Assembly (NCBI GenBank): GCA_030753015.1
Contig: JASMDC010000029.1
Location: forward strand, 7,002-44,251
Direction: 5' to 3'
DNA from: Candidatus Undinarchaeales archaeon
Lineage (GTDB): Archaea > SpSt-1190 > JASMDC01
Length of the DNA: 37,250 bases
Shown here: positions 27,560 through 37,112 of the stretch, one piece after another
Layout of the letters: each line of letters starts with the position of its first letter
Numbering within the stretch: position 1 is the first letter of the stretch
Made by a program: the position numbers and the translations under genes
The notes under the pieces: model-generated
What the model was told of the DNA's origin: nothing
The model's database searches: none
What the model saw: the letters and a program-made list of their open reading frames with translations, nothing else

Positions 27560-28405
27560 GTGAACGCCATGGACCGGCTCAGGCTCCTCTTTCTCAAGAC
27601 AGGCAACATCGGGGCCTCCACCCTCATCGAGCACATCATCGATGAGCGGGCCACCCGCCAGGACATCGAGGTCCGGGTGGTCGGCAGCGGCTCGCGCCTC
27701 GATCCCGCCTCGGTGGTGTGGCCGACGGACATCGCCCTCAACGCCCGAGCGAACCTTGTGGTGTACGTCACCCCCAACGCCTCGCTCCCGGGTCCCATGG
27801 ACGTCATCAAGGCGATCCGGTCCGCGGACATCCCGCTCATAGTCATCAGTGACGGTCCTGCCGTCAAGGCGCGCGAGGCGTTCGAGGAGCTGGGTGCCGG
27901 GTACATCCTCCTACACGTCGATCCCATGATCGGTGCACGCTCGGACCTGCTCGACCCGACCGAGATGGTGCTCTTCAATGCTGACGTGCTCAAGGTGCTG
28001 GCCGCCTGCGGGGTCGTCCGAACGCTCGCGAGGGAGCTCGATGCCGTCATCGAACACCTCAAGGTCGGGGACGCCACCCTACCACGGACGGTCATCGACC
28101 ACCACCTCCCGATGACCCTGGACGAGTTCTCTAACCCCTATGCACGCGCTAAGGCCATCGCCGCCCTGGACATGGCCTCGCGGGTCGGGCGGCTTGACGT
28201 GGAGGGATGCTTCATGGAGAAGGAGCCTGCCCGCTACCTCCCGCTCATCGCGGGAGCACATGAGCTCATGCGCGGTGCGGCCCTCCTGGCCGACGAGATA
28301 CGGGAGCTGGAGAAGGCCGACGACGCTCTTTTACGCACCCCGCACCGGCGTGACGGTGTGGTGGCCAAGAAACGTCCCCTGGACGAGCGGCCGGTTTCCC
28401 CGTGA
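27560..28405 (+). CDS. mtd: F420-dependent methylene-tetrahydromethanopterin dehydrogenase
   Basis: Motifs KTGNIG, DERA..DIEVRVVGSG, PNASLPGP, DPMIGAR..LDPTEMVLFNADVLKVLA, FSNPYARAKA, DVEGCF, AHELMR and RTPH. Start is GTG 27560 or ATG 27569. Confidence 0.93.
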   Translation: MNAMDRLRLLFLKTGNIGASTLIEHIIDERATRQDIEVRVVGSGSRLDPASVVWPTDIALNARANLVVYVTPNASLPGPMDVIKAIRSADIPLIVISDGPAVKAREAFEELGAGYILLHVDPMIGARSDLLDPTEMVLFNADVLKVLAACGVVRTLARELDAVIEHLKVGDATLPRTVIDHHLPMTLDEFSNPYARAKAIAALDMASRVGRLDVEGCFMEKEPARYLPLIAGAHELMRGAALLADEIRELEKADDALLRTPHRRDGVVAKKRPLDERPVSP

Positions 28406-29271
28406 GGTCGGGCAACGTGGAGCTCTCCGAGGGCTTCGGACGGGTCATGGCCCGGGTGCTCGTTACAGCAAAGGACACGGGATGGGCCCGCCGCGCCGCG
28501 GAGGCTGCCTGCGGGTTCGGTACGTCCCTCATCATGTGCCCTGCCGAATGCGGGATTGACGGGGAGGTCGACGGTACTTATACACCCGATGGCAGGCCCG
28601 GGATCGTGTTCATGGTGGTCCAGCGCACCCTCCCTTTGCTGGAAGAGCAGCTCGTGTCCCGCATCTCGCAGTGCGTTCTGACGACCCCAACGGCTGCCTG
28701 CTTCAACGCTCAGGAAAGCGATGAGGTCCTGCCCGTCGGGAGCAAGGTCCAGTACTTCGGTGACAAGCTCTCTACCAAGGAGGAGCGTTTCGATCGTACC
28801 CTATGGCGCATCCCCCTCATGGGCGGTGACTTCCTTATCGAGGATACGTTCGGTGTCGTCCATGGCGAATCGTACAAGCTGTGGGTGATGGGGAGCGAGG
28901 TGGGCGCGCTCACCGCAGCCCGGGCCGCCGCCGAGACCGCATCGAAAGTGGAGGGCGTGTTCCTTCCTTTCCCGGGCGGGATCAGCGCAGCGGGATCCAA
29001 GGTTGGTTCGGTGCACTACTCGTTCCTCAAAGCCTCCACCAACCACCCGTACTGTCCGACGGTGCGAGACAGGATCGAAAGTCGGCTTCCCGAGGGGATC
29101 GAGGCAGTGTACGAGCTCGTGATCACCGGTCTAGACCGTCAGCGGGTCGAGGACGCAATGTACGGTGCCGTCGAGGCGGCGGCTGCGAACGGTGCGGCCC
29201 GCATCTCGGCAGGTACGTTCGCGAAGAAGGTGATCGCGCGGCGACCCGACCTGGCCGACCTGCTCAAGTGA
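28402..29271 (+). CDS. ftr: Formylmethanofuran--tetrahydromethanopterin N-formyltransferase
   Basis: Motifs GFGTSLIMCPAECGI, TPDGRPG, RISQCVLTTPT.ACFN, FPGG...GSKVGS..Y.FL.ASTNHPYCPT and VYELVI.G. A GTGA overlap couples it to the mtd stop. Confidence 0.92.
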   Translation: MRSGNVELSEGFGRVMARVLVTAKDTGWARRAAEAACGFGTSLIMCPAECGIDGEVDGTYTPDGRPGIVFMVVQRTLPLLEEQLVSRISQCVLTTPTAACFNAQESDEVLPVGSKVQYFGDKLSTKEERFDRTLWRIPLMGGDFLIEDTFGVVHGESYKLWVMGSEVGALTAARAAAETASKVEGVFLPFPGGISAAGSKVGSVHYSFLKASTNHPYCPTVRDRIESRLPEGIEAVYELVITGLDRQRVEDAMYGAVEAAAANGAARISAGTFAKKVIARRPDLADLLK

Positions 29272-29312
29272 AGATGTCGTACGTACTACTCGTATATACA
29301 ATCATAGAGGAA

Positions 29313-29343
29313 TCTTTATAATCCGGATTTAATACTAGTATTA
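29313..29343 (+). promoter_or_regulatory. TATA-like box (TTTATAA) followed by adjacent palindromes AATCCGGATT (29320-29329) and TAATACTAGTATTA (29330-29343)
   Basis: Read directly from the sequence, about 35-60 bp upstream of small ORF p1. Confidence 0.45.
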
Positions 29344-29377
29344 GTTAGAGAGAACGACTCATAAGTTGTGTGTGAGA

Positions 29378-29455
29378 ATGGTGACCCTCCCAAGCCTTGT
29401 CGTGGCTGTACTGACCGTGCTGTATGCTGTTCGAGGATACAGCGAGGTCGAGTAA
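29378..29455 (+). CDS. Small hydrophobic peptide p1 (25 aa): MVTLPSLVVAVLTVLYAVRGYSEVE
   Basis: Hand-translated, below the ORF-track cutoff. Paralogous to p2 and p3. Confidence 0.65.
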   Translation: MVTLPSLVVAVLTVLYAVRGYSEVE

Positions 29456-29671
29456 CGCGCTGAAGTGAATCCCCCCCCCAGTGGACGACCCCCGAGGTCC
29501 GATCCGACTATGTAGTGGTCGGAGCGATCGTCGCAGGGGACATCTATTTCTTCCATGAGAGGACCATGTAGTCTAGAAAATACTTATCGTCTATATTAAC
29601 AGTGTGAAACCTATAAGATCCTGGGAACGTATTGACTTATTGTAGCGATTACACCCCCCCAGGTGATCCAC

Positions 29672-29761
29672 ATGGTAACGATCCCCGTAGCGATAATGGC
29701 CGTTCTGACCGTGCTCTATGCGATCCTGGGGTTCCGCGAGGTCACGAACGATCTGTCCTAG
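29672..29761 (+). CDS. Small hydrophobic peptide p2 (29 aa): MVTIPVAIMAVLTVLYAILGFREVTNDLS
   Basis: Hand-translated. AGGTGAT Shine-Dalgarno-like site at 29661. Shares AVLTVLYA with p1 using several different synonymous codons. Confidence 0.7.
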   Translation: MVTIPVAIMAVLTVLYAILGFREVTNDLS

Positions 29762-29940
29762 CGAGAATCCCTGGTCAGCGGGCATGCTGCTCAGCTTGTT
29801 CTAATATCGATAATCCTGCCATCATCAGTAAAAAGAGCCGTAAATCGTCGTAGTTGTTATAGTACGATATATACGTCAGGATTATATCCTAGAAATGACT
29901 ATAATATTACTAGAGAGATATCAGTAGGGAGAAACCGCAC

Positions 29941-30048
29941 ATGGTGACACTACAGATAATCGCACTAGGGTTGGTCATCATCCTGTATGCGGCGCACGCC
30001 TATAGCGAGCTTAACCAGGACCAAAGGGTCCTGTCACACGACTTCTAA
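29941..30048 (+). CDS. Small hydrophobic peptide p3 (35 aa): MVTLQIIALGLVIILYAAHAYSELNQDQRVLSHDF
   Basis: Hand-translated. GGGAGA lies upstream. Same MVT-x11-LYA-x3-[YF]-x-E register as p1 and p2. Confidence 0.65.
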   Translation: MVTLQIIALGLVIILYAAHAYSELNQDQRVLSHDF

Positions 30049-30059
30049 GGTGAGACGCG

Positions 30060-30117
30060 TCAGGGGATATCCCGGGAAGGCCCAGGGACGAATACGAATG
30101 GAGAGGCATACCCCTGA
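30060..30117. terminator. Imperfect inverted repeat between convergent p3 and wHTH genes; possible terminator or RNA structure
   Basis: TCAGGGGATAT at 30060 pairs with ATACCCCTGA ending at 30117. Confidence 0.3.
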
Positions 30118-30121
30118 ATCC

Positions 30122-30985
30122 TCAGCGCTGGTCCAGCAGCCAACGGTTCATCCTTATCCGGTTGATCTTCCCCACCCTCTCCTTGATGACTACCTTCTTT
30201 CGCTCCAGACGCTGGAGCGCTCGCGAGAGCGGGTACTTGTCGAGGTTGAGACGTGAGCGGATGGTGGTCTGGAGGAGCTCGCCGTCCGACTTGAGCAGTT
30301 CCTGAACTATCGCCTTCTCCGTGTCGTCCAGGGTCTTGAGCACGTAGTCCAGTCCGCGCTTCGGTTCGACCTCTTCCTCCTCGGGCACCTCCTCCTCTTC
30401 GGGATTGCGGCTAATGGCCAAAATGTAAGCGGTCCACCCCAGGACGAAGACCAGGAACACGATAGGCAGGGCGAGCGCCATCTCGCCACCGATCCTATAG
30501 GATACTGTGATGATGCCCGAAGGATCGTCGAAGCTCACGATGCGTGCCTCGACGAGGTGCTGCGAGGGGATCGTGGAGTTGCGGGGGAGGAGATGGGCCC
30601 GCTCGGGTAGAGCGACCGAGTAAGTGATACCCTGTGTGAAGTGGGGGATGAAGGTGAGAGTGCTCGTCGTCCCATCGCTCTTCACGAGCCCGGAGGTATC
30701 GTACACGATGGTGACGGGCCCACCATAGGGATTGTGGACAGAAAGCCGTTTGGTCGCAGGTACGTAGTCGTACGGGAGCATCCCAGAACCGGTCCGTACC
30801 TCCAGTTTCGCAGGATCGTTGGAGAACCGCATGGAGAGGGTCGTGTTCGTAAGCATGTTGACCGTATAGGACACGTGGACCGATCCATCGGCGTTCACGT
30901 CGAGACGGCAGGAGTTGGGGAGCGCCTGACCAAGGGTGGCGAGGCAGAGCACCAGAGCGATAATGAGAATCAGGCTTCGGGCCAC
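30122..30985 (-). CDS. Membrane-anchored protein with extracellular beta domain and C-terminal winged-helix DNA-binding domain (COG2512-like), about 287 aa
   Basis: GTG at 30985 gives the signal peptide MARSLILIIALVLCLATLGQA. TM helix LALPIVFLVFVLGWTAYILAI, an acidic linker, then wHTH LDDTEKAIVQELLKSDGELLQTTIRSRLNLDKYPLSRALQRLERKKVVIKERVGKINRI. The ORF-track start at 31159 would overlap B2. Confidence 0.85.
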   Translation of the reverse strand: MARSLILIIALVLCLATLGQALPNSCRLDVNADGSVHVSYTVNMLTNTTLSMRFSNDPAKLEVRTGSGMLPYDYVPATKRLSVHNPYGGPVTIVYDTSGLVKSDGTTSTLTFIPHFTQGITYSVALPERAHLLPRNSTIPSQHLVEARIVSFDDPSGIITVSYRIGGEMALALPIVFLVFVLGWTAYILAISRNPEEEEVPEEEEVEPKRGLDYVLKTLDDTEKAIVQELLKSDGELLQTTIRSRLNLDKYPLSRALQRLERKKVVIKERVGKINRIRMNRWLLDQR

Positions 30986-31007
30986 GGAACGGGCTTTCCT
31001 AATCAAC

Positions 31008-31016
31008 TTATATAAA
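31008..31016. promoter_or_regulatory. Palindromic TATA box (TTATATAA) shared by the divergent wHTH gene and B2
   Basis: About 23 bp from GTG 30985 (-) and 27 bp from ATG 31042 (+), in a 56-bp spacer. Confidence 0.65.
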
Positions 31017-31041
31017 TCTTGTCGGGCGTTCGATTGTTCAC

Positions 31042-33846
31042 ATGGCATTTCATCGTCTGTTACGTACCATCTCAGCCATAGTCCTCGTCGCTCTGCTCCT
31101 GACACCGGGCAGCGCCATCGTCGCGGACGAGGTCGTGGAGGAGGTGGACATATCCACATTGAAGTACGCCCAGGTGGACATCACCTACGTCCTCCCGAGC
31201 CGCTACCTCGATACACTCGATGATCAGCTGCTCAACAGCAGGTGTTCCTTGCTCTCTTCGGTGACCGGATGCCGCGCTTCGATCTACGGTGGCGAGGAGA
31301 AGGTCGTGTTCAACATGCTCGAGCCTAGCCCCGAGATCGGAGTCCGTGACATCGAGATCCAGGAGGACCTCATCACCGTTGAGTTCTACTTCAAGTACCT
31401 GCCTAAACAGTATGTGCTCGCCCAGGGGCTGATGGTGCGTGAGCGGGGGATGAAGATCAGGTACCCCACCCACACCACCGTGCTCAACTACGTGCTGGAC
31501 ATGCCCCTCCTCTCGCAGTTCGCGATCTCCAGGCGGGCTGTCCCTTTCTCGGCCACGGTGGACAAGACGTCCTTCGTCATCGGCGAGACCATCCCTATCC
31601 CAAAGATCTCGGAGGGCATCTTCTGCGTCGCGGCCCTCCTTGACGGTGACACGGTCATCGTCCGCGATTACTCGAGTACCTGTTCACCCTTCGAGCTGGG
31701 GACCACTTCGTTCATCCCGGAGGGCAGCTACGACCTCTACCTCATCGCGCTCACCGGGAGCTCGACCAAGTACAACAGCGTCCGGATCGATCTTGAAGCG
31801 TCCGACATCCCGACCTACCTCGACCTGGACAAGGACCGGTGCAACCTCGGAGAGTCCTTCGTCGTGAAGGTCACTTCCTCCGAGGACCTCGACCGGTGCG
31901 AGGTGCGCTTAATCGATCCCTTCGGCAACGAGGTGGAGGAGCGCACGTCGTACGACTGCGAGAACATCATCCTCGGGACCTCGCCTGCGCTGGTGCCCGG
32001 TCGCTATCTGATCAAGGCCTATGCTTGGAAGGGCGAGGAGCGGGGTGCTGCCTCGATGAGCATCACTCTGGTGGGTCAGGGATACACATCCTCCGAGATA
32101 ACCACCGACAGTGACGTGTACAACGCTGGCGACAACATCGAGGTGTATGCCGATACCGAGGGTGACCTCTGCATCACCGAGCTCTTCGACTCGGAGTACA
32201 ACAAGGTGGGCGAGGCCACGTCCGTCGGATGCAGGCCCGTTGACATCGCCGCTGACGATAGCCTCGAAGCGGGCAACTACCTGCTCAAGACCACTGTGAA
32301 GAAGAACGGGCGAATCATCTCTGTGGCCCCAAAGGGCATCGAGATCAGGCCATGGTCGGAGCGACGCGGCACGGTCCAGTCGGACCTCTGCCAGCAGGGC
32401 AAGCTCTACATCCTCGGCGAGCGGTTCCCCTGCATCTCCTCCGGCGAGGTGTGCGTCCCCTCGTCCTCGTCCAAGCCGCTATGTCTCTGCTTTGACGACG
32501 GGGGCAACCCGAAGGACTTCTGCGACTACGGCCACACCTGCGGCCAGACCGGCTGCTCAGCAACGAAGGTGTTCAAGACCCCCTTCATCATCATCCGCGA
32601 CCAAGGTAAATGCCTGGCACGCAAGGGCGACCAGACGATATCCTGTATCGCGCTCGGTGAGATCTGTGCCGGCAACTGCGTATGCATCAACGAGAAGGAC
32701 CAGCCCCTCTCGTCCTGTGTAGGGGGCGACACCTGCACGTTCGAGGGATGCCGCCGCTCCACGATCGAGCTCGAGGTCACGAGCGTCACACCGGAGAGCG
32801 TGCGCTCGGACGAGCTCAGGACCGGTGCCCAAGTGACGTGGAAGGGACATCTCCATATGGACGACCAGCTCTTCTCTGGAAGCCGGTCGCAGCTGGAGTT
32901 CACCATGCGCCTGGGCACGATCACGCTCGAGGACGCTGTCATCGAGGCCGAGTACGTTTCCTCGGCGGAGGGTTGGAAGGTGACCGGTACCTTCTCGGGG
33001 GACCTCGATCCGGGTAGATTCGAGACCTTCCTCATGGTCAAGCGTGGCGAGGACATCCATATCATGCGTAAGCCCATCCAGGTGTGGTATCCGGTGGGAG
33101 AGAGCAACCTCAATATCGAGATGCGGGACATCAATCCCGAGAAGATGTCCTATCGCGAGCTCGGCTACGGTGGCGGTGTCGAGCTGACGGCCCGTGTCAC
33201 TGACCATACGGGCCGGGCGCTCACCGGCAAGGACCTGCCGCCCGATGCGTTCAACCTGACCCTTGAGGGTGCCAAGTCGCTCGGTGCGTTCTCGATATCC
33301 GAGCCCACGTTCGACCAGCAGCTCGGCCTGTGGGTCATCAAGGGCACGTTCATGACCAATGTCCGGATCACCGTCAGCAAGGTCTCGGTGATCGTCAACC
33401 ATCTTGGTCGCAACGGCAAATCCTCCTCCCCCTTCGAGCTTCTCGAGCACGTGCCCCTTGTGATCAGGATCAAGAGCACCGATCCCGGTAGCCAGAAACC
33501 GATCTTCCATCTCATGGCCATCACCGGGTTCGATATGGATGTGTACGTTTCCATCGATGGCTCTGTATCGCTCCAGGCCGAGAACTTCGATATCACTTTC
33601 GGGAACATCAAGATCAAGCCCGACTGCAGTACAGCCGAAGGCGATCCATGCATCGACTACCTCATGGACACCGAACAGGGTGTACGCATCCACCTCTCCA
33701 ATATCAAGCTCTGTCCGAACGAACCACCGCCCAACAGCTCCCGGGACCTCAAGATCAAGGTCAAGGAGCAAGGTCAGAAGGCCGAGGACAAGACTCAACT
33801 ACGCATCATCGAGAATCCGGGCAAGTACCAGGTGAGGTGTTCATGA
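31042..33846 (+). CDS. Family B secreted Cys-rich multi-Ig-like protein, copy B2 (934 aa)
   Basis: Signal peptide MAFHRLLRTISAIVLVALLLTPGSA. Three repeats VDKTSFVIGETI, LDKDRCNLGESF and TDSDVYNAGDNI, plus a duplicated Cys module. Paralog of B1; ends VRCS*. Confidence 0.9.
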   Translation: MAFHRLLRTISAIVLVALLLTPGSAIVADEVVEEVDISTLKYAQVDITYVLPSRYLDTLDDQLLNSRCSLLSSVTGCRASIYGGEEKVVFNMLEPSPEIGVRDIEIQEDLITVEFYFKYLPKQYVLAQGLMVRERGMKIRYPTHTTVLNYVLDMPLLSQFAISRRAVPFSATVDKTSFVIGETIPIPKISEGIFCVAALLDGDTVIVRDYSSTCSPFELGTTSFIPEGSYDLYLIALTGSSTKYNSVRIDLEASDIPTYLDLDKDRCNLGESFVVKVTSSEDLDRCEVRLIDPFGNEVEERTSYDCENIILGTSPALVPGRYLIKAYAWKGEERGAASMSITLVGQGYTSSEITTDSDVYNAGDNIEVYADTEGDLCITELFDSEYNKVGEATSVGCRPVDIAADDSLEAGNYLLKTTVKKNGRIISVAPKGIEIRPWSERRGTVQSDLCQQGKLYILGERFPCISSGEVCVPSSSSKPLCLCFDDGGNPKDFCDYGHTCGQTGCSATKVFKTPFIIIRDQGKCLARKGDQTISCIALGEICAGNCVCINEKDQPLSSCVGGDTCTFEGCRRSTIELEVTSVTPESVRSDELRTGAQVTWKGHLHMDDQLFSGSRSQLEFTMRLGTITLEDAVIEAEYVSSAEGWKVTGTFSGDLDPGRFETFLMVKRGEDIHIMRKPIQVWYPVGESNLNIEMRDINPEKMSYRELGYGGGVELTARVTDHTGRALTGKDLPPDAFNLTLEGAKSLGAFSISEPTFDQQLGLWVIKGTFMTNVRITVSKVSVIVNHLGRNGKSSSPFELLEHVPLVIRIKSTDPGSQKPIFHLMAITGFDMDVYVSIDGSVSLQAENFDITFGNIKIKPDCSTAEGDPCIDYLMDTEQGVRIHLSNIKLCPNEPPPNSSRDLKIKVKEQGQKAEDKTQLRIIENPGKYQVRCS

Positions 33847-35714
33847 TGGTCGGGCGCACGCGTGGTCAGATGGCCCTCATGGGGCTCGCGGCAGTAGCGT
33901 TCGTCGTCATCATGATCGTGTACATGATGAGCGGCGGCCAGCAAACGGAAACCGAGATCAGGATCAAGGATATCCAGTCCGCAGGCCTCAAGAGCGAGCT
34001 GGAGAAGGTGGAGACCATCGTCTCGGACATCTTCGAGGAGTCCATCCACTCCTCCGCGCTCGAGCTGGCACGCCACGGCGGGTACGCAAAGGGGAACATT
34101 CCACCCAGGAGCCTGGGCCAGACACCCTACTGGTTCTACCGGGGCAATATCGTCAACATCCCATCGGTGGAGGTCATGACCGGAATGATGAAGGAGCGGA
34201 TGGAGTGGCGCATCTCCAACGAGCTCAATGACCTGCGGAAGAACCTGAGGATGAACATGTTCCGCATCGGCCAACCATCGGTCACCGTCACACTTACCGA
34301 CGTCCAGATCAACGCCAATATGGAGCTACCGATCAATGTTGTCCAGGGTGAGAACAAGTTAAAGACCAAGATCGAGTTCACCCACACAGCGACCCTGCGC
34401 CTCAAGAAGCTTCGCGACCTTGCCGAGGAGTACGTCCGTGAATACGAGAACGCACGCTACATGGAGTCGCAGTGGGAGCACGGCGTGAACAACGATCCAC
34501 GTGTGCCCGAGACCATCGGTGCAGGGGCGGCCGAGACCGGTCCCTGCTCGCACTGCCAGGTCGTCAAGTTCACCAAGGCCGGGATGACCGAGGCGCTGAA
34601 AGAGCACGCTCAGCTCCATGCGTCCATGGAGCTCCAGCGTGCCCGGGGCCTGCCCTTCTTCAAGGAGGACGCTGCCGGCGCGGCCGTCAAGGACATCCAG
34701 CTCGACTTCAAGGTCAATCCCCAGCACCTGAATTTCGAGTTCACGGCCAACAGGGGCGAGGACTGCGAGAGCAACACCGAGGTAAAGCTCATCAACTGGG
34801 GGAATCCCGGTGCATTCCCTACAGGACAATGCCAGCACTCCTACATGGTCGACTACGACCTGCTGGAGTTCCCCGTGGAGATCATCATCCGGGACCTGCT
34901 CAAGATCGGCATGGCCATGACCACCGAGACCGTCGCATCAACGAGCGATCAGGAGGAAAGCGGGACCAAGAGCATAGTAAAGCCCCTGGAGTTCCGCATC
35001 GTGATGGATTCCTACCTCAAGACCGGCGATCCTCGGGCAGTGGACGGCTCGGTCACCGACCCGGAGACCGTCGACAACCTCTGCCAGGGAGCTTGCTCCA
35101 TAGACATCACGGCCACCAACGCCAACGAGGGCACCCTGTTCATCGACTCGTGCGAGTACGGGCCTGGTAAGCATTTCACCGAGTCCAACGTACCGTGCGG
35201 GATCCACACAATCACCTTCACAGCGATCGATCCTCCGGGCAAGGCCAAGTTCGTTAAACAGGACAACATCAAGGAGAACTACCAGCTCGACATCGAGGTC
35301 CAGGACTACGCCTCGGTGAAGGGTACCATCAACATGAAGAACAAGGTGTACTGCACCAAATCCAAGCGCGTGGAGGACAAGGGTCTTGAGACCCTGGCGT
35401 ACTACGAGGGTGATCCGCCGCGGACCATCAGGCTGTTCTTCTACCCGGTCAACCACCGGCTGGGGGAGATGGTGCACGCCGACATCGACAAGAACGGCAA
35501 CTACGAGGTGCCCGTGATCAATCCCGGGACCTATCTTGTGCTGGCCTTCCCAACCGAGGACGCCTCCAACCGCCCCACCCACAAGGTGCTGCCCAAGGGC
35601 CTTGTGATGGACATCCAGCCCGGCTCTAACGATCTGAGCATCGAGCTCGAGCCACTGCGCGTGGAGAAGGTGGGCGACAAGTTCGTCAACGTGGTCGGTA
35701 GCGAGGACTGCTAG
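33843..35714 (+). CDS. Family A pilin-like surface protein, copy A3 (about 623 aa), with class III signal peptide
   Basis: ATGATG at 33843 overlaps the B2 stop and follows GGTGAGGTG. N-terminus MMVGRTRG/QMALMGLAAVAFVVIMIVYMM. Shares HGGY, PYWFYRG, LCQGACSID, VYCT and PGTYLVLAFP; ends EDC*. Confidence 0.9.
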   Translation: MMVGRTRGQMALMGLAAVAFVVIMIVYMMSGGQQTETEIRIKDIQSAGLKSELEKVETIVSDIFEESIHSSALELARHGGYAKGNIPPRSLGQTPYWFYRGNIVNIPSVEVMTGMMKERMEWRISNELNDLRKNLRMNMFRIGQPSVTVTLTDVQINANMELPINVVQGENKLKTKIEFTHTATLRLKKLRDLAEEYVREYENARYMESQWEHGVNNDPRVPETIGAGAAETGPCSHCQVVKFTKAGMTEALKEHAQLHASMELQRARGLPFFKEDAAGAAVKDIQLDFKVNPQHLNFEFTANRGEDCESNTEVKLINWGNPGAFPTGQCQHSYMVDYDLLEFPVEIIIRDLLKIGMAMTTETVASTSDQEESGTKSIVKPLEFRIVMDSYLKTGDPRAVDGSVTDPETVDNLCQGACSIDITATNANEGTLFIDSCEYGPGKHFTESNVPCGIHTITFTAIDPPGKAKFVKQDNIKENYQLDIEVQDYASVKGTINMKNKVYCTKSKRVEDKGLETLAYYEGDPPRTIRLFFYPVNHRLGEMVHADIDKNGNYEVPVINPGTYLVLAFPTEDASNRPTHKVLPKGLVMDIQPGSNDLSIELEPLRVEKVGDKFVNVVGSEDC

Positions 35715-35819: not shown

Positions 35820-37112
35820 CTAGCCGTCACCTGATAGCAGCCATATCCACAACGGTACGAACGAGATCCCTCCCTCTTTTCTTTCCAGGTTTCTCGTAAG
35901 GATGATCATATCTCTCGTTCTCTCGAAGCGCTCACTGAACTCCATGAGGGCGTTCACCTCGCGTTCGCTGACCGTGTCCGTGTACGTGACGTTAAGCGCC
36001 GACAGCGTCCGGTCCCTGTTCTTTATGATGAAATCGACCTCGCCCTTCCCCTTCCAATAGTAGACGTCCTTGTCCCTCCGTCTCAGCTCCACTAGTACCA
36101 GGTTCTCGGCCAGCTTGCCCTTGTCGCCCGAGAACCTGAAGGACACGGCGTTCCTCAAACCGTTGTCGATGCAGTACACCTTCGATGGAAGGGTCTTCTG
36201 CTCCTTGAAAGAATAGGAGAAATGGTCCAAGATGAAGAAGAGACGCGCCTCCTCGAAGCAGGAAAGGTACTTCTTTATCGTGTCGTACGAGAGGCCCATG
36301 CTTCCGCGCAGGCTTCTGAGAGAGATGGTGCCGGCGATGTTCGTCATGAGGAACAGTGCGAGGTCCCTGACCTTACGACTGCTCAGGTCGTGTCGTTCGA
36401 CTATGTCCTTGTACAGGATGTCGTCAAAGTACTGCGCAAGGAGCCTCATCTTGAACCGTTCGGGTTTAAAGTAGACCTCCGGGAACCCGCCCCGCTCCAT
36501 GTACCGCTCGAGCCGGTTCAGCAGCCGGTGTCTTGTCTCCTCTCCGATAGGACCTCTCCCTCCCTTCCCGACATCGGGCCGCTCGTTACCGAAATCGAGG
36601 AACTCCAGGTATGAGAGTAGGAACACCTCGAACGTGAGGTTCCTGCCCGTGAGGAGCGTGGCGTACTCCCGCTTCAGGAGGGACGAGGAGGAGCCAGAGA
36701 TGACGAACTTGTCCTTCGTCCTTCGGTCGTAACGCTTGCGGATCCAGGCCTCCCATCCCTCCCGACGATGGACCTCGTCGAGGAAGATGTACGCGTTATC
36801 GTCCGGATTGATGGCCTCCCTGTAGGCGGTGTACATCTCGTCGAGCCCGATCCCCGCCAGTGCTTTATCTTCCAAGTTGACGAAGAGGATCTGTTCGGGG
36901 CGGGCACCCCTGTTCAAGAGGTCACCTATCATCTGGTACATCAACGTGCTCTTTCCCGAACGCCTCGCTCCAGTAAGGACCGTTACTTCCCGAACGTCGA
37001 CAGAGGCGATAAGGTCCTCGTATGCCGACCTGTGGACGCCTTCGAGCTCTCCGATGAGGTCCCTTCGCTCCCACCAAGGATTCCAGTCACCCAGCGCCTC
37101 GATCAGCTCCAA
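35820..37112 (-). CDS. AAA+ superfamily ATPase (AAA_14 + DUF4143, COG1373-type)
   Basis: N-terminal WNPWW, Walker A GARRSGKST, Walker B YIFLDEV, ISGSSS, LTGR, GGFPE, KVYCIDNGL, ENLV and EVDFI. TTG start preceded by GGGGTGAT. Confidence 0.92.
   Translation of the reverse strand: MELIEALGDWNPWWERRDLIGELEGVHRSAYEDLIASVDVREVTVLTGARRSGKSTLMYQMIGDLLNRGARPEQILFVNLEDKALAGIGLDEMYTAYREAINPDDNAYIFLDEVHRREGWEAWIRKRYDRRTKDKFVISGSSSSLLKREYATLLTGRNLTFEVFLLSYLEFLDFGNERPDVGKGGRGPIGEETRHRLLNRLERYMERGGFPEVYFKPERFKMRLLAQYFDDILYKDIVERHDLSSRKVRDLALFLMTNIAGTISLRSLRGSMGLSYDTIKKYLSCFEEARLFFILDHFSYSFKEQKTLPSKVYCIDNGLRNAVSFRFSGDKGKLAENLVLVELRRRDKDVYYWKGKGEVDFIIKNRDRTLSALNVTYTDTVSEREVNALMEFSERFERTRDMIILTRNLERKEGGISFVPLWIWLLSGDG

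What the first reader, a model, noticed from the sequence alone, without database searches (positions are those of the whole stretch)
29300..30120. Hidden array of three paralogous micro-proteins, each apparently its own transcription unit
Three ORFs missed by the ORF track start at 29378, 29672 and 29941 (spacing 294 and 269 bp). They are MVTLPSLVVAVLTVLYAVRGYSEVE, MVTIPVAIMAVLTVLYAILGFREVTNDLS and MVTLQIIALGLVIILYAAHAYSELNQDQRVLSHDF. They align without gaps as MVT-x11-LYA-x3-[YF]-x-E: one TM helix plus a short polar tail. Conservation is at the protein level with synonymous changes, while the flanks are unrelated AT-rich, TATA-containing DNA. This layout resembles bacterial type I toxin arrays (Ldr, Ibs, Fst), which are not well documented in archaea. 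They could instead be small membrane regulators or signal peptides sensed by the adjacent membrane wHTH protein.
Basis: partly seen in the sequence, partly recalled or inferred. Interest (0 to 1): 0.78.

Follow-up and report, generated by a model that had tools for sequence, protein, structure and literature searches.

The report
Three tandem membrane micro-protein genes
Three tiny neighbouring genes in an uncultured marine archaeon each encode a 25-35-residue single-helix membrane protein; they are real and kept by selection, but they fit no known family and nothing yet shows that they are toxins.

Summary
Three same-strand ORFs (29378-29455, 29672-29761, 29941-30048; 25, 29 and 35 aa) lie in the 850-bp AT-rich gap between ftr and a convergent membrane wHTH gene. 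They align without gaps as M-[VIL]-T-x11-LYA-x3-[YF]-x-E.

They are the only such ORFs in the 3.85-Mb genome. A same-genus genome (about 83% nt identity) has the same three ORFs at the same place. There the frames stay open with no indels. Substitutions fall mostly on third codon positions (14/7/27). Pooled dN/dS is 0.23, close to the flanking genes (0.15 and 0.18). Paralogue flanks are unrelated. A hairpin inside ORF1 is not shared by the other two, so the conservation is at protein level, not RNA level.

Each unit has TATA-like boxes kept in the congener and an SD-like motif (perfect 9-mer before ORF2). Transcription itself is untested.

I found no relatives in Pfam, NCBIfam, PADLOC, PHROGs, PDB, 1.84 billion protein representatives, about 570 archaeal genomes, metagenome, viral, plasmid or phage collections.

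The type I toxin reading meets the generic criteria (small, one TM helix, tandem, polar tail). It lacks an antitoxin RNA, toxicity data and homology. I favour small membrane-protein modulators (about 0.5) over toxins (about 0.2).

The parts
29378..29455 (+). Micro-protein gene 1, 25 aa (MVTLPSLVVAVLTVLYAVRGYSEVE)
   Evidence: The congener orthologue is open, with dN/dS 0.12. The uncharged stretch covers residues 1-18, mean Kyte-Doolittle hydropathy 2.27.
29672..29761 (+). Micro-protein gene 2, 29 aa
   Evidence: The congener orthologue is open, with dN/dS 0.33. The uncharged stretch covers residues 1-21. The exact protein is an unnamed entry in public collections (P0001).
29941..30048 (+). Micro-protein gene 3, 35 aa, with the longest polar tail, ending LSHDF
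   Evidence: The congener orthologue is open, with dN/dS 0.26. In 6 natural variants the TM part is nearly invariant (one I/L change at residue 6) and the tail varies. AlphaFold2 gives one helix, residues 2-34, mean pLDDT 84.
29293..29299 (+). Unit 1 distal TATA-like box, TATATAC (inside the palindrome GTATATAC), 85 nt before the ATG
   Evidence: Identical in the congener. GTATATAC occurs 14 times in the genome, mostly in AT-rich promoter-like DNA.
29315..29321 (+). Unit 1 proximal TATA-like box, TTTATAA, about 62 nt before the ATG
   Evidence: TATATAA in the congener.
29592..29599 (+). Unit 2 distal TATA-like box, TATATTAA, 80 nt before the ATG
   Evidence: Lies inside a block conserved in the congener.
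29611..29617 (+). Unit 2 proximal TATA-like box, CTATAAG, about 60 nt before the ATG
   Evidence: ATATAA in the congener.
29868..29874 (+). Unit 3 distal TATA-like box, TATATAC, 73 nt before the ATG
   Evidence: The block TATAGTACGATATATACGT is identical in the congener.
29882..29888 (+). Unit 3 proximal TATA-like box, TTATATC, about 59 nt before the ATG
   Evidence: TTATAGC in the congener.
29661..29669 (+). Shine-Dalgarno sequence of gene 2, AGGTGATCC, 2 nt before the ATG
   Evidence: It is a perfect 9-nt complement of the congener's 16S rRNA 3' end...GGATCACCTCCT. GGTGAT is kept in the congener.
29927..29931 (+). SD-like GGGAG of gene 3, at -14 to -10
   Evidence: GGAGG at the same place in the congener.
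29372..29376 (+). Weak SD-like GTGAG of gene 1, at -6 to -2
   Evidence: The congener also has GAGGTG at -16 to -11. This is the weakest of the three.
29413..29449 (+). Hairpin inside gene 1 (16-nt arms, 81% complementary)
   Evidence: I1. Kept in the congener's gene 1, but broken in genes 2 and 3. The covariation term is +1.81, which is unfavourable.
29456..29470 (+). Conserved block just after the stop codon of gene 1
   Evidence: One mismatch to the congener in the aligned stretch.
29762..29803 (+). Conserved 3' block of gene 2, with a small hairpin followed by a T-rich stretch
   Evidence: One terminator-like site at 29780-29792 (1 found against 0.5 expected).
30049..30087 (+). Conserved 3' block of gene 3
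   Evidence: The 50-nt window 30035-30084 is 88% identical to the congener, against 64% in the next window.
30122..31048 (-). Neighbour, convergent: a 308-aa membrane protein with a C-terminal winged-helix domain
   Evidence: DUF7343 and MarR_2 hits, both below the Pfam cut-offs. 85% identical in the congener at the same place. dN/dS 0.18.
28402..29271 (+). Neighbour, upstream on the same strand: formylmethanofuran-H4MPT formyltransferase (ftr), preceded by mtd
   Evidence: Pfam FTR/FTR_C hits at E 2.5e-43 and 3.5e-39; MTD at 1.6e-97. dN/dS 0.15.

Best explanation
These are three real, separately promoted genes for paralogous single-pass membrane micro-proteins. They form an orphan family seen only in one genus of uncultured marine archaea.

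Shown: the frames are conserved and under purifying selection as proteins.

Inferred:
- Each mRNA starts at its own TATA-type promoter and carries a leader of roughly 30-55 nt with a Shine-Dalgarno motif.
- Each peptide inserts into the cytoplasmic membrane as one helix (residues about 2-21).
- Its invariant and near-invariant residues (T3, L15, Y16, A17, G/A20, Y/F21, E23) lie near the two ends of the helix.
- The peptides act by helix-helix binding to a larger membrane protein, or to each other, as bacterial small membrane-protein modulators do. They do not act by unspecific membrane damage.
- The three copies differ mainly in the length of the acidic or polar tail after E23 (2, 6 and 12 residues), and each is kept one-to-one in the congener. 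This points to three sub-specialised partners or conditions.

The partner is unknown. The adjacent membrane wHTH regulator is only one candidate.
For: Real genes:
- Against the congener there are 0 stops and 0 gap columns in 276 nt of ORF. The spacers have 14 gap columns in about 580 aligned columns and are 66-70% identical, against 79-84% for the ORFs.
- Substitutions by codon position are 14/7/27. My chi-square on these counts is 12.9, 2 d.f., p about 0.002.
- Pooled dN/dS is 0.23 at dS 0.53, the same neutral distance as ftr (dS 0.57, dN/dS 0.15) and the wHTH gene (0.46, 0.18).
- Of the six frames, only +0 is both stop-free and low in dN/dS.
- GC3 is 0.62-0.80, like the neighbouring genes, while the AT-rich spacers are 34-50% GC.
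- There is a perfect 9-nt SD before ORF2 and SD-like motifs before ORF1 and ORF3.

Protein, not RNA: the ORF1 hairpin is not shared by the other two and the covariation term is unfavourable. Paralogue flanks are not similar.

Membrane helix: each peptide has an uncharged stretch of 18-22 residues, mean hydropathy 1.8-2.3. ORF3 is predicted as a single helix, pLDDT 84.

Specific function rather than generic damage:
- Each paralogue has a 1:1 orthologue.
- Polar residues T3, Y16 and E23 are invariant in all 6 sequences.
- In 6 natural ORF3 variants the TM part is nearly invariant (one I/L change at residue 6) and the C-terminal LSHDF is kept.
- The locus is stable between two species, and was identical in the contig pieces of all 4 laid runs, which come from 4 studies.

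Promoters: the TATATA hexamer occurs only 392 times in 3.85 Mb, yet every unit has two TATA-like boxes kept in the congener. In 123 SD-led genes of this genome, TATA-like hexamers peak at -55 to -41, with a shoulder to -65.
Against: - No transcription or translation data exist for this organism.
- The comparative evidence rests on one other species and 48 substitutions.
- The antisense frame -1 also shows low dN/dS (0.25). This is the expected mirror effect, and that frame has 2 stops across the three ORFs.
- No partner is identified. 7 wHTH-homologue loci elsewhere lack small hydrophobic ORFs.
- Tandem duplication of small TM ORFs in one intergenic region is, in bacteria, a hallmark used to find type I toxins (PMC2887945). 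That favours the rival.
- The proximal boxes (-59 to -63) lie slightly upstream of the genome-wide peak.
- The SD of ORF1 is weak.
Confidence: 0.5

Rival explanations
1. A type I toxin-antitoxin-like array. Each peptide would be a membrane-damaging toxin whose mRNA is held in check by an antisense or overlapping small RNA. That RNA could, for instance, be driven leftwards from the next unit's AT-rich promoter region, or for ORF3 come from the convergent wHTH transcript.
For: - The array meets the screening criteria in Fozo et al. 2010 (PMC2887945, passages read): under 70 aa, one TM region, a short polar or aromatic C-terminus, tandem copies in one intergenic region, and set apart from the flanking genes (107 nt and 73 nt).
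- My own tandem small-TM-ORF screen of the whole genome returns this array as its only clean intergenic hit.
- The distribution is narrow.
- Each spacer holds two conserved TATA-like boxes about 20 bp apart, which could be a divergent pair.
- Unit 1 folds better than shuffles on both strands (z -2.5 and -2.7).
Against: - No antitoxin RNA is identified, and Rfam gives nothing.
- Units 2 and 3 fold no better than shuffles on either strand (z from -1.07 to +0.34).
- Tandem copies share no sequence outside the ORF, unlike Z3289/Z3290, where similarity extends beyond the coding region.
- There is no homology to any toxin family in Pfam, NCBIfam or PADLOC.
- The tails are net acidic in 5 of 6 peptides.
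- The paralogues are old (dS saturated) and each is kept 1:1 at a stable, syntenic locus.
- Fozo et al. state that these criteria give many false positives.
- A 2025 abstract (PMC12390103; search listing only) says type I systems are so far known only from three bacterial phyla.
Confidence: 0.2
2. The peptides are dedicated partners or inputs of the adjacent membrane-anchored wHTH regulator (30122-31048, minus strand). They would bind its TM helices and tune its activity.
For: - The adjacency and convergent layout are kept in the congener.
- The regulator has two hydrophobic segments flanking an outside domain, then a cytoplasmic winged helix (sequence; Pfam hints).
- This is a special case of the best explanation.
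Against: - The evidence is synteny in one congener only.
- 6 paralogous wHTH loci in this genome and 1 homologue locus in another archaeon have no small hydrophobic ORFs nearby.
- The wHTH Pfam hits are below the curated cut-offs.
Confidence: 0.12
3. The conserved elements are non-coding: small RNAs, or promoter or terminator structures. On this view the ORFs are incidental or are decayed fragments of a larger gene.
For: - ORF1 contains a good hairpin that is kept in the congener.
- Short conserved blocks follow each stop codon.
- ORF3 versus ORF1 or ORF2 is not significant by E-value alone.
Against: - The substitution pattern has third-position excess, with dN/dS 0.23 only in the stop-free frame.
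- There are no indels in the ORFs, although the spacers have them.
- The hairpin is broken in ORF2 and ORF3.
- Paralogue similarity is at amino-acid level, with saturated synonymous sites.
- Start and stop codons are kept in all 6 sequences.
- No longer protein anywhere resembles them, so they are not fragments.
Confidence: 0.05

Closest known systems
Tandem type I toxin loci of bacteria (ldr/rdl, ibs/sib, zor/orz, Z3289/Z3290), as defined and screened for in Fozo et al. 2010 (PMC2887945; passages read)
   Same: Very small ORFs, each with one TM helix and a short polar or aromatic tail. They are repeated in tandem in one intergenic region, set apart from the flanking genes, narrow in taxonomic range and easily missed by gene callers.
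   Different: No antitoxin RNA is seen or testable here, and there is no toxicity data or homology. The copies share no flanking or UTR sequence. The tails are acidic. The paralogues are anciently diverged and individually conserved. The host is an archaeon with TATA-type promoters.
Bacterial small membrane-protein modulators and accessory subunits, such as KdpF, CydX, AcrZ and MgtS. The class is as reviewed in PMC12648545 (two passages read); the individual names other than CydX are recalled.
   Same: 25-40-residue single-pass peptides with a few conserved polar or aromatic residues, under purifying selection. They act, or here are inferred to act, by binding a larger membrane protein.
   Different: Those are usually single genes inside or beside the operon of their partner. 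Here there are three separately promoted paralogues with no identifiable partner operon. There is no Pfam match and no KdpA in the genome.
Methanosarcina mazei sP24 (spRNA24 with asRNA94), a single-TM archaeal small protein paired with an antisense RNA (bioRxiv 10.1101/2025.10.28.685009; abstract and passages read)
   Same: An archaeal lineage-restricted micro-protein with one TM helix, encoded on its own small transcript. It shows that antisense control of such genes exists in archaea without the protein being a toxin: sP24 is reported to be protective under salt stress.
   Different: Not related in sequence as far as I could test; I made no direct comparison because the sP24 sequence was not fetched. 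sP24 is a single gene, not a tandem family. For the present locus no RNA data exist.

Membership tests
Type I toxin-antitoxin system | Small (under about 70 aa) hydrophobic peptide with one predicted TM region and a short polar or aromatic C-terminus | tested here: met
   25, 29 and 35 aa, with uncharged stretches of 18-22 residues and tails RGYSEVE, REVTNDLS and ELNQDQRVLSHDF. ORF3 is predicted as one helix.
Type I toxin-antitoxin system | An RNA antitoxin (cis-antisense or overlapping or divergent sRNA) that pairs with the toxin mRNA | not testable with these tools
   No RNA data were available. Rfam found nothing. Folding z-scores are exceptional only for unit 1. There is no inverted repeat linking a spacer to a 5' region beyond an 11-nt match.
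Type I toxin-antitoxin system | Growth arrest or membrane damage on overexpression, relieved by the RNA | not testable with these tools
   Needs an experiment.
Type I toxin-antitoxin system | Homology to a described toxin family (Ldr, Fst, Ibs, Hok, TisB, ShoB, Zor and others) | tested here: not met
   0 Pfam families at E up to 10 for all 3 peptides. NCBIfam gave only a CtaJ hit at E 0.18, far below its cut-off. PADLOC gave 0.
Type I toxin-antitoxin system | Tandem copies in one intergenic region. This is a frequent feature used for screening, not strictly a defining one. | tested here: met
   Three copies spaced 294 and 269 bp apart. Unlike Z3289/Z3290, similarity does not extend beyond the ORFs.
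KdpF (small subunit of the Kdp potassium-transporting ATPase) | Match to the KdpF profile, and a kdpABC operon in the genome | tested here: not met
   No Pfam hit. KdpA (PF03814) was not found in the genome, which is 98.9% complete, while the control genomes matched.
Genuine protein-coding gene | Frame kept open in relatives, purifying selection in that frame only, and a translation-start signal | tested here: met
   All 3 frames are open in the congener. dN/dS is 0.23, with no stops only in frame +0. Differences by codon position are 14/7/27. SD motifs are present. Only one comparison species is available.
Independent transcription units (archaeal TATA-type promoter for each gene) | A mapped transcription start and end for each gene | tested here: inconclusive
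   Every unit has two TATA-like boxes kept in the congener. Start sites are not mapped. Only one terminator-like site was found.

The most novel reading that the evidence does not exclude
This would be the first type I toxin-antitoxin-like array in an archaeon. It would consist of three anciently diverged membrane-toxin genes, each silenced by an antisense RNA fired from the bidirectional AT-rich promoter block of the next unit, or for the last copy from the convergent regulator transcript. That would carry RNA-antitoxin control of membrane peptides into the TATA/TBP world.
Probability: 0.18. Interest if true: 0.75.

Novelty: new member of a known kind. Interest (0 to 1): 0.38.

Why it matters
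Small membrane proteins are the least charted part of archaeal proteomes. This case is unusually clean: three unnamed genes of 25-35 codons whose coding status can be shown from sequence alone, in an uncultured marine archaeon found in many seawater metagenomes.

If they are modulators, they point to an unknown membrane partner, with three-fold tuning by tail length.

If they prove to be RNA-controlled toxins, they would extend type I toxin-antitoxin systems to archaea. A 2025 abstract (PMC12390103; search listing only) says such systems are so far reported only from a few bacterial phyla.

As it stands, this is a solid annotation gain and a testable candidate, not a new principle.

Tried and rejected
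Expression
- No RNA holder is listed among 23 public runs. The one RNA run listed holds next to none of the words.
- Contigs of 4 DNA runs were laid. The pieces were identical to the window, so they gave no extra variation and no information on expression.

Complex prediction
- It was then declared unavailable. Nothing was folded, so binding is untested.

Homologue searches with no result
- The scan of 1.84 billion representatives returned only the paralogues themselves, plus one spurious repeat protein.
- Genome contigs returned only the congener.
- Two metagenome scans and one viral scan gave 0. The tool warns that records near the window's own genome may be left out.
- tblastn of ORF2 against plasmids and phages gave 0.
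- The PDB profile search gave only a GPCR TM1 at E 0.24.
- ESM Atlas hits scored 0.79 or less, below its own noise level.
- PHROGs gave E 0.11 at best.
- The HMM run over the genomes hit only G000 and G001 as micro-ORFs. In one search, 9 other genomes had weak hits (E 0.002-0.5) in open frames of 71-682 aa.
- In some searches there was 1 marginal hit each, in frames of 189 and 512 aa.

Ideas considered and dropped
- KdpF analogue: no KdpA in the genome.
- MtrI/MtrR-type regulators of the H4MPT pathway, prompted by the mtd-ftr neighbours: MtrI is a 68-aa soluble zinc-ribbon protein (PMC12774963, passages read).
- Conserved RNA hairpin instead of protein: rejected.
- Antisense ORF 29359-29556 (65 aa; 96 aa in the congener): only the part overlapping ORF1 is alike.
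- A general micro-protein plus wHTH module: not seen at 7 other loci.
- A fourth or degenerate copy: none found.
- 16S rRNA is absent from this assembly, so the anti-SD was read from the congener.
Full report
**What is there**

Between the stop of ftr (29271, + strand; mtd lies just upstream; Pfam) and the stop of a convergent gene for a membrane protein with a C-terminal winged helix (30122-31048, - strand) lies an 850-bp gap. Its spacers drop to 34-50% GC, against about 60% for the genome.

On the + strand the gap holds three ATG-started ORFs: 29378-29455 (25 aa), 29672-29761 (29 aa) and 29941-30048 (35 aa). They align without gaps over 25 residues, with M1, V2, T3, L15, Y16, A17 and E23 invariant.

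**Is it more than chance**

- A loosened version of the motif, run over all six frames of the 3.85-Mb assembly (117 contigs), matches these three places and nothing else. The motif came from the three ORFs, so this shows rarity only.
- The non-circular test searched each peptide alone against 99,911 six-frame segments of the genome. ORF1 and ORF2 retrieve each other at E 1e-4 and 7e-5.
- ORF3's top non-self hit is ORF1, but at E 0.34-0.4. ORF3 is therefore a distant paralogue whose kinship rests on rank 1 of about 1e5, identical register and adjacency.
- My Fozo-style screen for neighbouring, similar, small hydrophobic ORFs over the whole genome returns this array. The higher-scoring pairs (on C89, C20, C7 and C29) I took to be frames inside repeated longer genes, which I did not check further.

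**Coding or not**

A same-genus genome (G001) carries the same three ORFs at the same place, between the same neighbours. The 3-kb region is 82.7% identical.

- The three ORFs show 0 stops and 0 gap columns and are 79-84% identical. The four spacers have 14 gap columns and are 66-70% identical.
- The 48 substitutions fall 14/7/27 on codon positions 1/2/3. My chi-square is 12.9, p about 0.002.
- dN/dS is 0.12, 0.33 and 0.26, pooled 0.23, at dS 0.53. That is the same neutral distance as ftr (dS 0.57, dN/dS 0.15) and the wHTH gene (0.46, 0.18).
- Among the six frames, only +0 combines low dN/dS with no stops. The mirror frame -1 has 0.25 but two stops, and the rest are 0.7-3.6.
- Between paralogues, synonymous sites are saturated while amino acids are kept.
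- The DNA flanks are no more alike than shuffles: 41-301 of 500 shuffles score as high.
- A 16-nt-arm hairpin inside ORF1 is kept in the congener's ORF1. It is broken in ORF2 and ORF3, and the alignment fold has an unfavourable covariation term of +1.81.
- The conservation is therefore on the peptides. GC3 of 0.62-0.80 fits the neighbours' codon usage.

Caveat: all of this rests on one comparison species.

**Translation and transcription signals**

- The congener's 16S rRNA ends ...GGATCACCTCCT. This assembly has no 16S.
- ORF2 is preceded by AGGTGATCC, a perfect 9-nt complement, 2 nt before the ATG.
- ORF3 has GGGAG at -14 to -10 (GGAGG in the congener).
- ORF1 has only GTGAG at -6 to -2. The congener adds GAGGTG at -16 to -11.
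- Each unit has a distal TATA-like box (TATATAC, TATATTAA, TATATAC at -85, -80, -73). These are identical or nearly so in the congener.
- Each also has a proximal box at an almost fixed distance (TTTATAA, CTATAAG, TTATATC at about -62, -60, -59), kept as TATA-like in the congener.
- The TATATA hexamer occurs only 392 times in the genome.
- GTATATAC occurs 14 times, mostly in AT-rich promoter-like DNA.
- In 123 SD-led long ORFs of this genome, TATA-like hexamers peak at -55 to -41, with a shoulder to -65. That set was chosen for AT-rich upstream DNA, so it is rough.

Separate promoters are therefore plausible. No start or end is mapped, and only one terminator-like site was found.

**The peptides**

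- Each has an uncharged stretch of 18-22 residues from the N-terminus (mean hydropathy 1.8-2.3), then a tail of 7, 8 and 13 residues. The tail is net acidic in 5 of 6 sequences.
- AlphaFold2 on the six natural ORF3 variants gives one helix, residues 2-34, mean pLDDT 84.
- Across the 6 sequences M1, T3, L15, Y16, A17 and E23 never change. Positions 10, 13, 20, 21 and 22 take two residues only.
- In 6 ORF3 variants from public collections the TM part is nearly invariant (one I/L change at residue 6), the middle of the tail varies, and LSHDF is kept.

**Distribution**

No family matches were found in:
- Pfam;
- NCBIfam;
- PADLOC;
- PHROGs;
- PDB;
- the ESM Atlas, above its noise level.

A profile search of 1.84 billion representatives finds only the paralogues themselves: P0001 is ORF2, P0002 is ORF3 and P0003 is the congener's ORF1. 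It also returns one spurious repeat protein.

These entries are unnamed but present in several public sources, so some gene callers do predict them.

Six-frame HMM searches found micro-ORF matches in 2 genomes only, G000 and G001. The searches covered:
- 41 relatives;
- the whole phylum as held, 17 genomes;
- three other archaeal phyla, with 2, 133 and 400 genomes.

The few other hits lie inside open frames of 71-682 aa.

A scan of one genome per species for a 10-residue motif found only the congener. Its public title reads 'Candidatus Undinarchaeota archaeon'.

Metagenome, viral, plasmid and phage scans gave nothing. Records close to this genome may be hidden by the tools.

The DNA itself occurs in seawater and marine metagenomes of 12 studies. 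The pieces laid from 4 runs were identical to the window.

**What it most likely does**

I take it as shown that these are selected protein-coding genes for single-helix hydrophobic peptides. The rest is inference.

The modulator reading is that they bind a larger membrane protein or each other, as bacterial small membrane proteins do. It fits:
- the invariant polar residues;
- the 1:1 retention of three old paralogues that differ chiefly in tail length;
- the stable syntenic locus.

The type I toxin reading fits the generic criteria of Fozo et al. 2010: under 70 aa, a TM region, a polar or aromatic C-terminus, tandem copies and distance from the neighbours (PMC2887945). In bacteria, tandem duplication is a fair pointer to toxins. 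Against it:
- No RNA partner is visible.
- Folding is unexceptional in 2 of 3 units.
- The copies share no UTR sequence.
- There is no homology to toxin families.
- The authors themselves warn of many false positives.

An archaeal precedent for a single-TM small protein with an antisense RNA, M. mazei sP24, is reported as protective under salt stress rather than toxic (bioRxiv 10.1101/2025.10.28.685009).

The idea that the peptides serve the adjacent wHTH membrane regulator has only conserved adjacency behind it. Seven other wHTH-homologue loci lack small hydrophobic ORFs. The complex prediction that could have tested it was unavailable.

My odds:
- modulator or accessory peptide: about 0.5, of which the wHTH partner is about 0.12;
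- type I-like toxin: about 0.2;
- non-coding or incidental: about 0.05;
- the remainder: roles not thought of.

**Novelty and verdict**

The family is new, in that it has no relatives anywhere I could search. The kind, tandem single-pass micro-proteins, is known. This scan has noted other archaeal micro-protein arrays of unknown function in unrelated genomes (leads only, not tested here).

Its toxin interpretation is neither supported beyond generic resemblance nor excluded.

Noticed in passing
window 6292-26835 (+): Three back-to-back giant ORFs (2115, 2092 and 2640 aa) have almost no recognisable domains. The only Pfam match is one Kazal_2 hit at E 3.7e-5.
   Followed up: partly
window 31042-35714 (+): Two long ORFs (934 and 688 aa) are divergent from the wHTH gene. 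The first has a signal-peptide-like N-terminus. Neither has a Pfam, PADLOC or PHROG match.
   Followed up: partly
whole genome G000 and congener G001: The genome is 3.85 Mb, 60% GC and 98.9% complete, and carries mtd and ftr. Yet the other 15 genomes held for its phylum are 0.6-1.2 Mb. The congener's public title says 'Candidatus Undinarchaeota archaeon'. The size and metabolism are odd for that label.
   Followed up: no
G000 contig C72, 10222 and 10358 (+): Two adjacent small hydrophobic ORFs (36 and 41 aa) are weakly similar to each other (local score 47). This may be another micro-protein pair.
   Followed up: no
window 29470-29480 and 29654-29660: There are homopolymer C runs (C9 after ORF1, C7 just before the SD of ORF2). 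Both are shorter and interrupted in the congener.
   Followed up: no
window 29447-29615, 29887-29907 and 30041-30065: Public-run contigs of four different runs break at similar places inside the array, for example at 29582-29615 in three runs. This may reflect low depth or strain-level variation at the promoter blocks.
   Followed up: no
window 35820-37112 (-): An AAA_14 / DUF4143 ATPase gene lies at the right end of the window.
   Followed up: no
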